Assembly: GCA_049190665.1 (NCBI GenBank)
Contig: CM110852.1
Reading direction: 5' to 3' (one strand)
Length of the DNA: 64,000 nucleotides
Source of the DNA: Lepidogalaxias salamandroides
Taxonomy: Eukaryota
Each line of letters opens with the position of its first letter. Within the stretch, counting starts at the first letter, position 1. This document shows, piece by piece, positions 24,023-25,811 of the stretch. Made by a program: the position numbers.

Positions 24023-25811
24023 GTCGTCGTGACGTCGAAGTGAAACGGTACTCAATGACGGCCTTATTTTAGTAACTATTCGTGGTGCTCAAGGTTTAAA
24101 CGGATAATGGGCGCGCACACAATACAGTGATCCCTCGCTGTATCGCGGTTCCCCTTTCGCGGCTTCGCGGATTTTTTTTTAATGTTTTTTTTTTCTCACA
24201 GTGCATTGTGTTCTGCGTCCTGATTGGCTAAACAGTCTCAGCGCTTCTTCTCTATCTATGTCAGTTCAATAAAGTTACGGTATACGTAATACACCTTGAC
24301 AAATTTAAGTTCCCCAAAAACAAAAATGTCAACAAAACGTTCTGCGCCGACAAAGGCATGTGGGGACGCGCCGAAAAGGCAGCGGAAGATGCTAAGTATA
24401 GCAGAAAAAGTGACACTTTTGAACATGCTAAAGGAGGGTAGAAGCTATGCGGCCGTAGGTCGCCATTATGGAATGAATGAATCTTCGGTTCGTTACATAA
24501 AGAAGGAAGAAAGAAACATCAGGACGACAGAAGCAATACGTTTTCACAAGGATGCAAAAAGGGTTGCAACTCTCCGCAACAAGACCATCGTAAGGATGGA
24601 GTCTGCGTTAGCTTTGTGGATTAATGACTGCAGAAAAAAGAACATTACGCTGGATACCAACGTTATCTGCACAAAGGCGAAAAAACTGTATCAAACCTTT
24701 GCTGACAGCGATGACATTCATGACAGGAGAGACGAGGAGGAGGGGGAGGATGCCAGGCCTTCGACGAGTGCTGTTCATTCGGTATCAAGCCCATTTAATG
24801 CCAGCAAGGGCTGGTTTGATAAATTTAAGAAACGCTTTGGACTTAAAAATGTTTCTCTGCACGGAGAGGCCGCCTCTGCGGATACCACTTTTGCGTTTGT
24901 GAACAATACATTTAAAGCGATCGTTGAGGAAGGAGGATATAAGCCCGAACAAGTTTTTAATATGGATGAGACCGGCTTATTTTGGAAACGAATGCCCTCC
25001 CGCACCTTTATCACGCAGGAACGAATGCCCTCCCGCACCTTTATCACGCAGGAACGAATGCCCTCCCGCACCGTATCTACTGCCGTAGATACAGCTGTGA
25101 ATCTCGCCAAACAGTTTGGAGGAGACGGCATTCATGACATGACTCCGGATGACATTAATGCCCTGATTGATGCACACGCACACCCGCTGACCGATGAAGA
25201 CCTGGCACAGATGACAAAGCCACCAAGTGACGGTGAGGGAGAAGAGGAAGAAGAGGACACAAGTGTTCATCAAGATGAGGAGGATGGACTAACACTTGGT
25301 CGCTTAGCAACAATGCTGAGAATGGCCAGTGAACTTCAGCGAGCAGCACAAGAATGGGACCCTTTGATGAGTCGTTCATTACTGTTCTCAAATATAATCG
25401 ATGGTGGCATGTCGGTTTATAAGAATATTTTTGCCCAGAAGAAAAAAGAGCGAAAACAACTACCCATCACTATGTTCTTCTCTCGAAAAAACACACCTGC
25501 ACCACAGGCTTCAGAAGAAAGAGACACTACAGAGCGGAGTCAGTCAGAGGCGCAGTAAAATATATATTTGTCCTACTATACAGTACTGTACTTCGTATTG
25601 ATGATTAAAATTATTATTTTACAATAGTTATTTGTAAGAAAGCGTTTATACTTTTATTTGTTAAACAAATGCTTGGGCCTGAAAACAGGTTTTGTTCCAG
25701 ATACTACATTCCGCGATGCCAGTGAATATTTCATGCTGCACTCATTTGATTAAATGAAGATGAATTATTCAAACAAGATGAGGGGATAGTCCAAACTGGG
25801 GGTCATATTGC

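What the first reader, a model, noticed from the sequence alone, without database searches (positions are those of the whole stretch)
24128..25720. pogo/Tigger copy reduced to an intact DNA-binding-only ORF, with an in-frame 3 x 33-bp tandem at the deletion junction
The 410-aa ORF from ATG 24326 keeps both N-terminal HTH modules and the acidic C-terminus. It jumps from the first DDE motif (FNMDETGLFWKRMPSRTF) straight to the post-catalytic region. A perfect triplication of RMPSRTFITQE lies at the junction. A transposase that retains DNA binding but loses catalysis is a classic source of repressors or domesticated genes (CENP-B, Jerky and TIGD types). A CRE-rich tandem and hairpin and a CCAAT box (ctgattggct at about 24222) lie just upstream.
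Basis: partly seen in the sequence, partly recalled or inferred. Interest (0 to 1): 0.6.

Follow-up and report, generated by a model that had tools for sequence, protein, structure and literature searches.

The report
Broken Tigger transposon with repair scar
This is a dead copy of a fish Tigger/pogo "jumping gene" that lost its cutting domain and one end; the small tandem repeat in the middle is most likely a DNA-repair scar, and nothing shows the host has adopted it as a gene.

Summary
Window 24125-25697 is a Tigger1-like (pogo superfamily) DNA transposon. It has a TA plus a conserved 5' inverted repeat. [quoted passage not shown]

Compared with a 2412-bp full-length relative, 634 bp are missing. 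That segment covers the whole Pfam DDE_1 domain. It is replaced by 58 bp: 51 bp copied directly from the adjacent upstream sequence, which makes the "tandem" (2.6 copies, not 3), and 7 bp copied in inverted orientation from the adjacent downstream sequence. The net loss is 576 bp, exactly 192 codons. This pattern fits error-prone, synthesis-dependent break or gap repair.

The copy also lacks the last 133 bp, including the 3' inverted repeat, so it cannot be mobilised. The CCAAT box is a conserved part of the transposon. The CRE-rich tandem and hairpin lie about 0.5 kb outside it.

The open reading frame is adequately explained by youth plus a one-in-three chance of an in-frame junction. Selection tests do not separate this copy from ordinary copies. 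All known vertebrate pogo-derived host genes keep the DDE domain. Domestication or repressor function is unsupported and could not be tested. I judge this an ordinary transposon fossil of low interest.

The parts
24123..24124 (+). TA dinucleotide flanking the 5' end; one half of the expected TA target-site duplication
   Evidence: TA immediately precedes CAGTG in the window and in both reference elements L001 and L002. The 3' partner cannot be assessed because the 3' end is missing.
24125..24148 (+). 5' terminal inverted repeat CAGTGATCCCTCGCTGTATCGCGG
   Evidence: It matches the 5' ends of L001 and L002 (CAGTGAACCCTCGCTATAACGCGG, 3 mismatches). Homology to both begins exactly here.
24149..24325 (+). 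Transposon 5' UTR / subterminal region, including the conserved Y-box/CCAAT motif CTGATTGGCT at 24220-24229
   Evidence: The block GTGCATTGTGTTCTGC..CTGATTGGCTAAACAGTC is conserved in all three elements.
24326..25558 (+). 410-aa ORF: DDE-less Tigger1-like transposase remnant
   Evidence: ORF list. Best relatives are full-length Tigger1-like proteins, 80-82% identical.
24374..24526 (+). CENP-B_N helix-turn-helix module (aa 17-67)
   Evidence: Pfam PF04218, 26.7 bits, above the cutoff. AlphaFold pLDDT is 85-91. Top Foldseek hit is the CENP-B DNA-binding domain 1HLV.
24782..24850 (+). Best-scoring stretch of HTH_Tnp_Tc5 (aa 153-175). The domain is matched in two stretches; only the best-scoring one (aa 153-175) is listed, and it follows the acidic, low-confidence segment (aa about 130-160).
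   Evidence: Pfam PF03221, 46.1 bits, two stretches. P0003, the one full-length relative scanned, is also matched in two stretches, and the alignment is gapped and variable at this position.
24956..24985 (+). FNMDETGLFW: the motif carrying the first catalytic Asp, the only part of the DDD triad left
   Evidence: Coordinates. The motif is near-invariant in alignment A1. Assigning it as the first D rests on general knowledge of pogo/Tc5 transposases.
24987..25072 (+). 33-bp unit x 2.6, 100% identical. 25022-25072 (51 nt) is the extra material, an exact direct copy of 24989-25039.
   Evidence: TRF, repeat finder D2. Parent continuity with L001 runs through 25021.
25073..25079 (+). 7-nt filler GTATCTA at the deletion junction. 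Together with the next C it is the reverse complement of GTAGATAC at 25085-25092 (hairpin 25073-25092, loop TGCC).
   Evidence: Direct reading and comparison with L001/L002. A chance match of a 7-mer within +/-40 nt on either strand has a probability of about 0.01 (my own calculation).
25080..25555 (+). Retained post-catalytic C-terminal region: acidic stretch (25229-25288), helical hairpin (aa 324-377) and PIP box QLPITMFF (25457-25480)
   Evidence: 93.5% DNA identity to L001 element 1535-1998. No Pfam family. pLDDT 72-85 for the hairpin. The PIP motif is conserved across homologues and is known in pogo/Tigger (PMC5371812).
25559..25697 (+). Remnant of the transposon 3' UTR. Homology ends at 25697; the terminal 133 bp and the 3' inverted repeat are absent.
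   Evidence: 25592-25697 matches L001 element 2164-2279 at 87%. Smith-Waterman alignment of the reference tails against 25690-26500 scores no better than shuffles. A regex search (<=6 substitutions) and blastn of the full elements find no tail anywhere in the window.

Best explanation
Window 24125-25697 is a defective copy of a Tigger1-like cut-and-paste DNA transposon (pogo superfamily). The full-length form is about 2.4 kb with a transposase of about 600 aa.

Shown: 634 bp spanning the whole DDE_1 catalytic domain have been replaced by 58 bp that are copied from the two sides of the break. Of these, 51 bp are a direct copy of the sequence just upstream; this creates the 2.6-copy 33-bp tandem. 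The other 7 bp are an inverted copy of the sequence just downstream.

Inferred: this is the product of one error-prone, synthesis-dependent repair event. It could be interrupted gap repair after excision, or microhomology-/polymerase-theta-type end joining. The left 3' end re-primed upstream twice (loop-out type). The right 3' end folded back on itself (snap-back type). The two ends were then joined.

The junction happens to keep the frame (net -576 nt, 192 codons). The result is an ORF that fuses the bipartite CENP-B-like DNA-binding domain to the acidic/helical C-terminus with its PCNA-binding PIP box.

The copy has also lost its last 133 bp, including the 3' inverted repeat, so it can no longer be excised or mobilised. 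The ORF is still open because the copy is young, not because of demonstrable host selection. If it is transcribed, the protein could in principle bind Tigger ends and PCNA without cutting, but there is no evidence that it is made or used.
For: Family identity:
- Pfam domains.
- 423 homologues, the best being full-length 'tigger transposable element-derived protein 1-like' proteins carrying DDE_1.
- DNA homology to elements in Trachinotus anak and Neoarius graeffei starts exactly at TA|CAGTG.

Deletion map: L001 element 1-900, 1535-1998 and 2164-2279 align to window 24125-25021, 25080-25543 and 25592-25697. Pfam DDE_1 covers aa 251-430 of P0003; the window lacks P0003 aa 248-451.

Junction anatomy shows direct and inverted templated insertions. 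These are the defining products of loop-out and snap-back synthesis-dependent end joining (PMC2943611). Internal deletions by abortive gap repair are the standard origin of defective Tc1/mariner-type elements (PMC3814204, PMC4678618).

It is not an intron: the deleted segment starts GAAGCC and ends CATCACT.

The 3' inverted repeat is missing.

Youth and chance are sufficient for the open frame:
- The repeat copies are identical over 53 compared nt.
- The ORF stays open in 50-63% of simulations at 1-1.5% neutral divergence and in 23% at 3%.
- Branch pN/pS is 0.45, against 0.49 for an ordinary copy.

Other in-frame DDE-less derivatives of the same family occur in lizard, snake, bat, bichir and other fishes. 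One of them has both inverted repeats. The window is transposon-rich.
Against: - The single-event repair model is inferred from the scar only. A deletion followed by separate replication slippage would look similar.
- The left-side re-priming has at most 2 nt of microhomology.
- pN/pS of 0.45 is significantly below 1 (p = 0.003), and two small indels relative to the references are both in frame (+3, -6). Some constraint acted along this lineage, and I cannot show that all of it predates the deletion.
- Loss of one inverted repeat, an intact DNA-binding domain plus PIP box, and a promoter-like motif cluster 200-300 bp upstream are also what an early domestication would look like.
- Copy number in the source genome and expression are unknown.
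Confidence: 0.8

Rival explanations
1. This is one member of an amplified non-autonomous subfamily. The deletion arose once in a progenitor that still had both inverted repeats, was copied around the genome by full-length Tigger transposase, and this particular copy later lost its 3' end.
For: Internally deleted derivatives are the usual fate of this family (PMC4231638, PMC9219625). Other DDE-less derivatives exist, and the snake one (L003) carries both inverted repeats. Several related protein clusters have multiple members.
Against: There is no second copy in the 64-kb window. No protein with this junction exists among 5.8 billion clusters, though the source species appears not to be represented there. 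This copy has no 3' inverted repeat.
Confidence: 0.25
2. It is a host-retained or transposon-encoded DNA-binding-only protein. It would act as a repressor (like the KP protein of P elements) or be a young domesticated gene (like Drosophila CAG). It would bind Tigger ends through the CENP-B-like domain, possibly dimerise through the C-terminal helical hairpin, and bind PCNA through the PIP box, all without cutting.
For: - 410 codons are open. The junction and both small indels are in frame.
- pN/pS is 0.45, p = 0.003 against neutrality.
- The DNA-binding modules score above Pfam cutoffs and fold confidently.
- The PIP box and helical hairpin are intact.
- The copy is immobilised by loss of the 3' end.
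- A conserved Y-box lies in the 5' UTR, and CRE/ETS-like motifs lie upstream.
- Precedents: CAG (PMC4231638) and KP (PMC7776569).
Against: - pN/pS is no lower than for an ordinary copy, L001 (0.49; Fisher p = 0.34).
- An open frame is expected for a young copy.
- The 5' inverted repeat and transposon UTRs are intact.
- No orthologue or paralogue with this junction is in the databases.
- All 12 recognised vertebrate pogo-derived genes retain the DDE domain, and TIGD1-like sequences are regarded as pseudogene-like multicopy elements (PMC7386202).
- There are no expression data.
Confidence: 0.07
3. The tandem repeat is unrelated to the deletion. A simple deletion came first, or a tandem triplication came first, and replication slippage made or changed the 33-bp array separately.
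For: Short tandem duplications arise by slippage. Microhomology at the unit boundary is minimal, so a repair model is not forced.
Against: The third copy is cut exactly at the deletion breakpoint and is followed by a second, independent templated insertion: a 7-nt inverted copy of the adjacent sequence (chance about 0.01). The repeat units are identical. Two templated insertions coinciding at one junction is what a single synthesis-dependent repair event gives (PMC2943611).
Confidence: 0.15
4. The DDE-less ORF is a retrocopy, or an annotation-like product, of a spliced Tigger mRNA in which the catalytic domain is removed as an intron.
For: Several annotated DDE-less 'isoforms' in other vertebrates break within about 20 codons of the same point.
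Against: - The deleted segment has no GT...AG ends.
- The junction carries 58 nt of templated filler.
- The 5' inverted repeat and UTR are retained, and no poly(A) tract was seen in the sequence read downstream of the ORF.
- The gene ranges of the snake and bichir loci (1215 bp and 1013 bp) are too short to hold the missing DDE_1 region, and the Logan ORF is contiguous, so these relatives are deletions at the DNA level too.
Confidence: 0.01

Closest known systems
Tigger family of the pogo superfamily (Tigger1-like / 'TIGD1-like' elements of fishes and other vertebrates)
   Same: It has CENP-B_N plus HTH_Tnp_Tc5 DNA-binding modules, a TA flank, a roughly 24-nt terminal inverted repeat starting CAGTG, a conserved 5' UTR, and a C-terminal PIP box. 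Identity to full-length elements in Trachinotus and Neoarius is 80-82% at the protein level and 87-93% at the DNA level.
   Different: It lacks the whole DDE_1 domain (the second and third catalytic Asp) and the 3' inverted repeat. It is a fossil fragment, not a functional member.
Internally deleted non-autonomous DNA transposons formed by abortive gap repair, and SD-MMEJ / polymerase-theta repair junctions with templated insertions
   Same: There is a large internal deletion with short templated direct and inverted insertions copied from the immediate flanks. This is the loop-out and snap-back signature (PMC2943611). It is the standard route to defective Tc1/mariner-type copies and MITEs (PMC3814204, PMC4678618).
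   Different: The direct insertion is unusually long (51 nt, two rounds) and has little microhomology at the re-priming point. The event itself is inferred, not observed. This copy lacks one end, so it is not a mobilisable non-autonomous element.
Drosophila CAG (pogo-derived, DDE-less, binds PCNA)
   Same: It has the same architecture: a pogo-type DNA-binding domain retained, the DDE domain removed by an internal deletion, and the C-terminal part retained (PMC4231638).
   Different: CAG is treated as a domesticated host gene, supported by a protein-interaction network (PMC4231638). Here there is no orthology, expression or copy-specific selection evidence, and transposon termini and UTRs are still attached.
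KP repressor of the Drosophila P element
   Same: An internally deleted element encodes the N-terminal DNA-binding part of the transposase without catalysis. KP dimerises and blocks transposase binding (PMC7776569 and references therein).
   Different: It belongs to a different superfamily (THAP rather than CENP-B-type helix-turn-helix). KP elements keep both ends and spread to high copy number. Repressor activity is untested here.
Vertebrate pogo-derived host genes (CENPB, JRK, JRKL, TIGD2-7, POGK, POGZ)
   Same: They share ancestry and the same DNA-binding modules.
   Different: All of them retain the DDE domain, lack inverted repeats, are single-copy and syntenic across many species, and have Ka/Ks of 0.05-0.2 (PMC7386202). 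None of these properties is shown here, and the DDE domain is absent.

Membership tests
Tigger / pogo DNA transposon (any copy, including defective ones) | [quoted passage not shown] | tested here: met
   Pfam hits are above the gathering cutoffs. There are 423 homologues, the best 80-82% identical Tigger1-like proteins. Top Foldseek hit is CENP-B 1HLV.
Tigger / pogo DNA transposon (autonomous element) | DDE_1 catalytic domain with the DD(29-36)D triad | tested here: not met
   There is no DDE_1 hit. The region equivalent to P0003 aa 248-451 (DDE_1 is 251-430) is deleted. Only the first-Asp motif FNMDET remains.
Tigger / pogo DNA transposon (mobilisable element) | Terminal inverted repeats at both ends | tested here: not met
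   The 5' repeat is present at 24125-24148. The 3' repeat is absent: homology stops at 25697 and the reference tails find nothing above shuffle level.
Tigger / pogo DNA transposon | TA target-site duplication | tested here: inconclusive
   TA precedes the 5' end (24123-24124). The 3' end is missing, so the duplicate cannot be checked.
Amplified non-autonomous (internally deleted) subfamily | Several copies in the same genome sharing the same deletion junction | not testable with these tools
   There is no second copy in the window and no same-junction protein in the databases. The junction 18-mer gave only chance hits in the metagenome and prokaryote collections. The source genome is not available.
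Domesticated pogo-derived host gene (CENPB/TIGD/JRK type, or CAG type) | Loss of transposon termini | tested here: inconclusive
   The 3' terminus is lost, but the 5' inverted repeat, TA and both UTR remnants are retained.
Domesticated pogo-derived host gene | Syntenic orthologues across species | not testable with these tools
   The neighbouring TRIM45 has its best database match at only about 61% identity. No sufficiently close genome is reachable.
Domesticated pogo-derived host gene | Purifying selection acting after immobilisation (Ka/Ks well below 1 between orthologues) | tested here: inconclusive
   Terminal-branch pN/pS is 0.45 (p = 0.003 against 1) but does not differ from an ordinary transposon copy (0.49; Fisher p = 0.34). 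The branch mixes time before and after the deletion.
Domesticated pogo-derived host gene (vertebrate set) | Retention of the DDE domain, as in all 12 recognised vertebrate genes | tested here: not met
   DDE_1 is deleted. The criterion comes from PMC7386202.
KP-type transposon-encoded repressor | Truncated transposase that keeps the DNA-binding domain and lacks catalysis | tested here: met
KP-type transposon-encoded repressor | Demonstrated expression, dimerisation and inhibition of transposition | not testable with these tools
   This needs RNA or protein data and excision assays. The only hint of a possible dimerisation element is a predicted helical hairpin at aa 324-377.
PCNA-interacting proteins (PIP-box) | Motif Q-x-x-[ILM]-x-x-F-[FY] | tested here: met
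   QLPITMFF lies at aa 378-385 and is conserved in homologues. The motif definition and its presence in pogo/Tigger come from PMC5371812. Binding itself was not tested.
SD-MMEJ / templated-insertion repair junction | The inserted sequence forms direct or inverted repeats with adjacent sequence unaffected by the repair | tested here: met
   There is a 51-nt exact direct copy of 24989-25039, and a 7-nt (8 with the next base) inverted copy of 25085-25092. The criterion comes from PMC2943611.

The most novel reading that the evidence does not exclude
The DDE-less ORF is functional. It would be a teleost counterpart of Drosophila CAG or of the P-element KP protein: a Tigger-derived protein that keeps sequence-specific DNA binding, a C-terminal helical (possibly dimerising) module and a PCNA-binding PIP box. 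It would be expressed from the transposon's conserved Y-box promoter or from the CRE/ETS-rich flank. It would act either as a repressor of Tigger mobilisation or as a new host factor recruited to replication forks. In-frame DDE-less derivatives recur in lizard, snake, bat, bichir and other fishes, which would then reflect repeated selection for such proteins rather than ascertainment.
Probability: 0.07. Interest if true: 0.55.

Novelty: new member of a known kind. Interest (0 to 1): 0.18.

Why it matters
As it stands this matters little. It is one more decayed Tigger copy in a transposon-rich intergenic stretch, and it should not be annotated as a host gene.

Two points have modest value. First, the junction is a clean natural example of a two-sided templated-insertion repair scar, with a direct copy from one flank and an inverted copy from the other. 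It explains how a "mysterious" in-frame tandem can arise inside a transposon. Second, the deletion leaves a DNA-binding domain plus PIP-box protein of the kind that has been domesticated once in flies (CAG).

If the ORF were shown to be expressed and conserved, it would be the first DDE-less pogo domestication or KP-like repressor in a vertebrate.

Tried and rejected
A regex search with <=6 substitutions, MAFFT alignment, Smith-Waterman against shuffles, and blastn of the full elements all fail.
- **Second copies in the window.** None; only (AC)n hits.
- **Exact-protein lookup.** Not on record.
- **Junction 18-mer scans of metagenome and prokaryote genome collections.** These gave 18 hits. All are chance matches of 18-20 nt, except L015, where the match stretches to 38 nt at 89% with no transposon homology around it.
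- **Orthologous-locus test through the neighbouring TRIM45.** The best match is only about 61% identical, so no close relative is available.
- **Splicing or retrocopy origin.** Rejected: no GT...AG ends, filler at the junction, and the DDE-less relatives are genomic deletions.
- **Apparent hot spot of left breakpoints** (9 of 11 derivatives at reference aa 231-260). I judged this largely ascertainment. Requiring 'no DDE_1 hit but an intact HTH' confines breakpoints to about aa 193-260.
- **Mosaic origin.** The N-terminal part is equidistant from L001 and L002, while the C-terminal part is closer to L001. The differences are too small to claim.
- **PDB sequence search.** No hit.
- **Rfam on 22000-28000.** No hit.
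- **Pfam on the C-terminal 161 aa.** No family.
- **Foldseek.** It recovered only the DNA-binding domain. No match to a dimerisation domain was recovered for the C-terminal hairpin.
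Full report
**What is in the sequence**

The ORF is as described. ATG is at 24326 and the stop ends at 25558, giving 410 aa. Pfam finds CENP-B_N (aa 17-67, 26.7 bits, cutoff 21.2) and HTH_Tnp_Tc5 (46.1 bits, cutoff 22.2). It finds no DDE_1.

Tandem Repeats Finder reports a 33-bp unit in 2.6 perfect copies at 24987-25072. The peptide is therefore RMPSRTFITQE twice followed by RMPSRT. It is not a full triplication.

No other copy of the element occurs in the 64-kb window. 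The window is teleost DNA. It holds TRIM45 exons at 32257-36034 on the minus strand, a V-set Ig exon, beta-tubulin exons, and several other transposon remnants: a hAT dimerisation domain, a retroviral env and an integrase.

**Family and boundaries**

A search of 5.8 billion protein clusters gave 423 relatives. The best are full-length 'tigger transposable element-derived protein 1-like' proteins with CENP-B_N, HTH_Tnp_Tc5 and DDE_1. They are P0001 from Trachinotus anak and P0002 from Neoarius graeffei, at 80-82% identity.

I fetched their loci. In both, the gene sits inside a classic element: TA|CAGTGAACCCTCGCTATAACGCGG ... CGAGGGTTCACTG|TA. The element is 2412 bp in L001 and 2716 bp in L002.

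Window homology starts exactly at TA|CAGTG, with the element beginning at 24125. The 5' UTR is conserved too, including CTGATTGGCTAAACAGTC.

At the other end, homology stops at 25697. The references run on for 133 bp to the 3' inverted repeat, and the window has nothing comparable. Four searches agree on this:
- a regex search allowing 6 substitutions;
- a MAFFT alignment;
- Smith-Waterman alignment of both reference tails against 25690-26500, scoring 17 against a shuffle mean of 18.5;
- blastn of the full elements against the whole window.

The copy is therefore 24125-25697, 1573 bp. It has a 5' inverted repeat but no 3' inverted repeat, so it cannot be mobilised as it stands.

**The deletion and its junction**

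L001 element positions 1-900, 1535-1998 and 2164-2279 align to window 24125-25021, 25080-25543 and 25592-25697. The missing 634 bp correspond to P0003 residues 248-451. Pfam places DDE_1 at residues 251-430 of that protein. The whole catalytic domain after the first-Asp motif (FNMDET, 24956-24985) is gone.

Between the two homology blocks lie 58 nt:
- 25022-25072 (51 nt) is an exact direct copy of 24989-25039. This is what produces the 2.6-copy tandem.
- 25073-25079 (GTATCTA), together with the following C, is the reverse complement of GTAGATAC at 25085-25092. It forms a hairpin with a TGCC loop.

A random 7-mer would match either strand within 40 nt of the junction about 1% of the time (my own calculation). 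The net change is -634 + 58 = -576 nt, exactly 192 codons, so the frame is kept. The deleted segment begins GAAGCC and ends CATCACT, so it is not an intron.

Insertions that form direct and inverted repeats with the immediate flanks are the defining products of loop-out and snap-back synthesis-dependent microhomology-mediated end joining (PMC2943611). Interrupted gap repair after excision is the accepted origin of internally deleted Tc1/mariner-type elements (PMC3814204, PMC4678618).

I therefore read the tandem as a repair scar made in the same event as the deletion. This step is inferred. The weak point is that the re-priming site has at most 2 nt of microhomology. A separate slippage event cannot be excluded.

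**What the ORF would encode**

An AlphaFold model built on the 11-sequence alignment gives the following:
- The two helix-turn-helix modules are confident (pLDDT 76-91).
- The repeat-encoded segment (aa 232-255) is disordered.
- The acidic stretch (aa 296-320) is disordered.
- A helical hairpin at aa 324-377 has pLDDT 72-85.

The best structural match is the CENP-B DNA-binding domain bound to DNA, 1HLV.

Immediately after the hairpin lies QLPITMFF (aa 378-385, 25457-25480). It fits the PIP-box consensus Qxx[ILM]xxF[FY] and is conserved across the family. A PIP box is known in pogo transposase and in Tigger (PMC5371812, citing Warbrick 1998).

On paper the protein could bind Tigger ends and PCNA without cutting DNA.

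**Is it selected or just young?**

I assigned substitutions to terminal branches, using the window copy, L001 and L002 over 383 codons.

| Branch | Synonymous | Non-synonymous | pN/pS |
|---|---|---|---|
| Window copy | 24 | 39 | 0.45 (p = 0.003 against neutral) |
| L001 | 14 | 25 | 0.49 |
| L002 | 33 | 30 | 0.25 |

The window copy does not differ from the other two (Fisher p = 0.34). L001 is itself a slightly damaged transposon copy, with a 13-nt deletion at its start. The constraint seen is what any lineage descended from an active transposase shows. It cannot be assigned to the period after the deletion.

In simulation, the ORF stays open in 63%, 50%, 23% and 7.5% of trials at 1%, 1.5%, 3% and 5.5% neutral divergence. 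The repeat units are identical over 53 compared positions, which has a probability of only 0.07 at 5% pairwise divergence. That argues for a recent event.

An in-frame junction has a one-in-three prior. Two small indels relative to the references (+3, -6) are in frame. That is a weak hint of constraint, but it cannot be dated.

**Comparison with known things**

The real precedent for a DDE-less pogo derivative is Drosophila CAG. [quoted passage not shown] The functional analogue for a transposon-encoded repressor is the KP protein of P elements (PMC7776569).

Similar in-frame DDE-less derivatives of the same Tigger lineage are annotated in Anolis, Erythrolamprus, Molossus, Polypterus, Myripristis and in Logan contigs. 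The gene ranges of the snake and bichir loci are too short to hold the missing DDE_1 region, and the Logan ORF is contiguous, so these are deletions at the DNA level. The snake one has both inverted repeats. Their left breakpoints cluster near FWKRMPSRTF, but my selection criterion largely forces that.

**What could not be done**

The exact protein is not in the collection, and no near-identical protein exists. The junction 18-mer hit only chance matches in irrelevant collections. The neighbouring TRIM45 has no match above about 61% identity.

As a result, copy number in the source genome, the orthologous locus in close relatives, and expression all remain untested.

**The upstream features**

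The CRE-rich features exist. A 27-bp unit x3 (23526-23606) carries six ACGTCA sites, and it overlaps a perfect 18-nt inverted repeat (23593-23610/23623-23640). Ten of the window's 30 TGACGT sites lie in 23528-24035, against 18.6 +/- 4.2 expected for the whole window.

They lie about 485-600 bp outside the transposon's 5' end. Nothing ties them to the ORF.

**Verdict**

This is an internally deleted, 3'-truncated Tigger1-like transposon fossil. Its in-frame tandem is best explained as a templated-insertion repair scar. The type is well known, and interest is low. I estimate about a 7% residual chance that the ORF is a functional DNA-binding/PCNA-binding derivative.

Noticed in passing
window 23526-23640: A 27-bp unit x3 (GTACGTCATTAGTACGTCATTACATTA) carries six ACGTCA half-CRE sites. 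It overlaps a perfect 18-nt inverted repeat with a 12-nt loop. It lies outside the Tigger copy. Its nature is unknown: it could be the terminus of another transposon or a regulatory element.
   Followed up: partly
window 23850-23935: A promoter-like cluster of motifs lies 200-300 bp upstream of the Tigger 5' end: TGACGTA, TTCCGG, CATGCGCAG and CAGGAAGT. It was read by eye only, and no gene was assigned to it.
   Followed up: no
window 23991-24020 and 25812-25840: Two (AC)n microsatellites of about 15 units, in the same orientation, bracket the Tigger copy at about 105 bp and about 115 bp from its ends. This may be coincidence in a microsatellite-rich fish genome.
   Followed up: no
proteins P0029, P0049, P0071, P0081, P0088, P0100, P0113, P0115, P0118; loci L003-L005: In-frame DDE-less derivatives of the same Tigger lineage recur in lizard, snake, bat, bichir and teleosts. 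Their left breakpoints fall at reference aa 193-260 and their right breakpoints at 437-509. All keep the helix-turn-helix modules, and most keep the C-terminal PIP-box region (it is missing or disrupted in P0029, P0081 and P0113). The clustering is partly forced by how I selected them. The snake element has both inverted repeats.
   Followed up: partly
L001 2737-5148 (Trachinotus anak) and L002 2768-5483 (Neoarius graeffei): Genes annotated 'tigger transposable element-derived protein 1-like' in these genomes are complete transposon copies with TA flanks and inverted repeats. L001 has a 13-nt deletion just after the true ATG, so its annotated protein starts at a downstream Met.
   Followed up: yes
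window 24326-25021 versus 25080-25555: The N-terminal coding part is equidistant from L001 and L002 (89.6% each). The C-terminal part is closer to L001 (92.0% against 87.4%). This could reflect template switching between subfamilies, or just rate variation. The differences are too small to claim.
   Followed up: partly
window 16894-17352 (-): This ORF begins MTTPALLPLSGRRIP...HHRATLRLSEKFILLLILSAFITLCFGAFFFLPD. From memory it resembles exon 1 of alpha-mannosidase MAN1A2, which would put the Tigger copy in the man1a2-trim45 intergenic region. Pfam found no domain, and the identification was not verified.
   Followed up: no
window 37402-38917: A long tandem array is readable as (PALSS)n on the plus strand and (EEKRGL)n on the minus strand. 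It lies next to a V-set immunoglobulin exon (Pfam V-set, aa 76-168 of the minus-strand ORF).
   Followed up: partly
window 40537-43232 and 51092-56529: Other transposon remnants are present: an integrase zinc-binding domain (42837-43229, minus strand), a hAT dimerisation domain (51092-51691, minus strand), a retroviral env-like ORF (52853-54157, minus strand), and a hAT-like ORF with a weak DUF659 match (55291-56526, minus strand). The env ORF lies between the two hAT-like pieces.
   Followed up: partly
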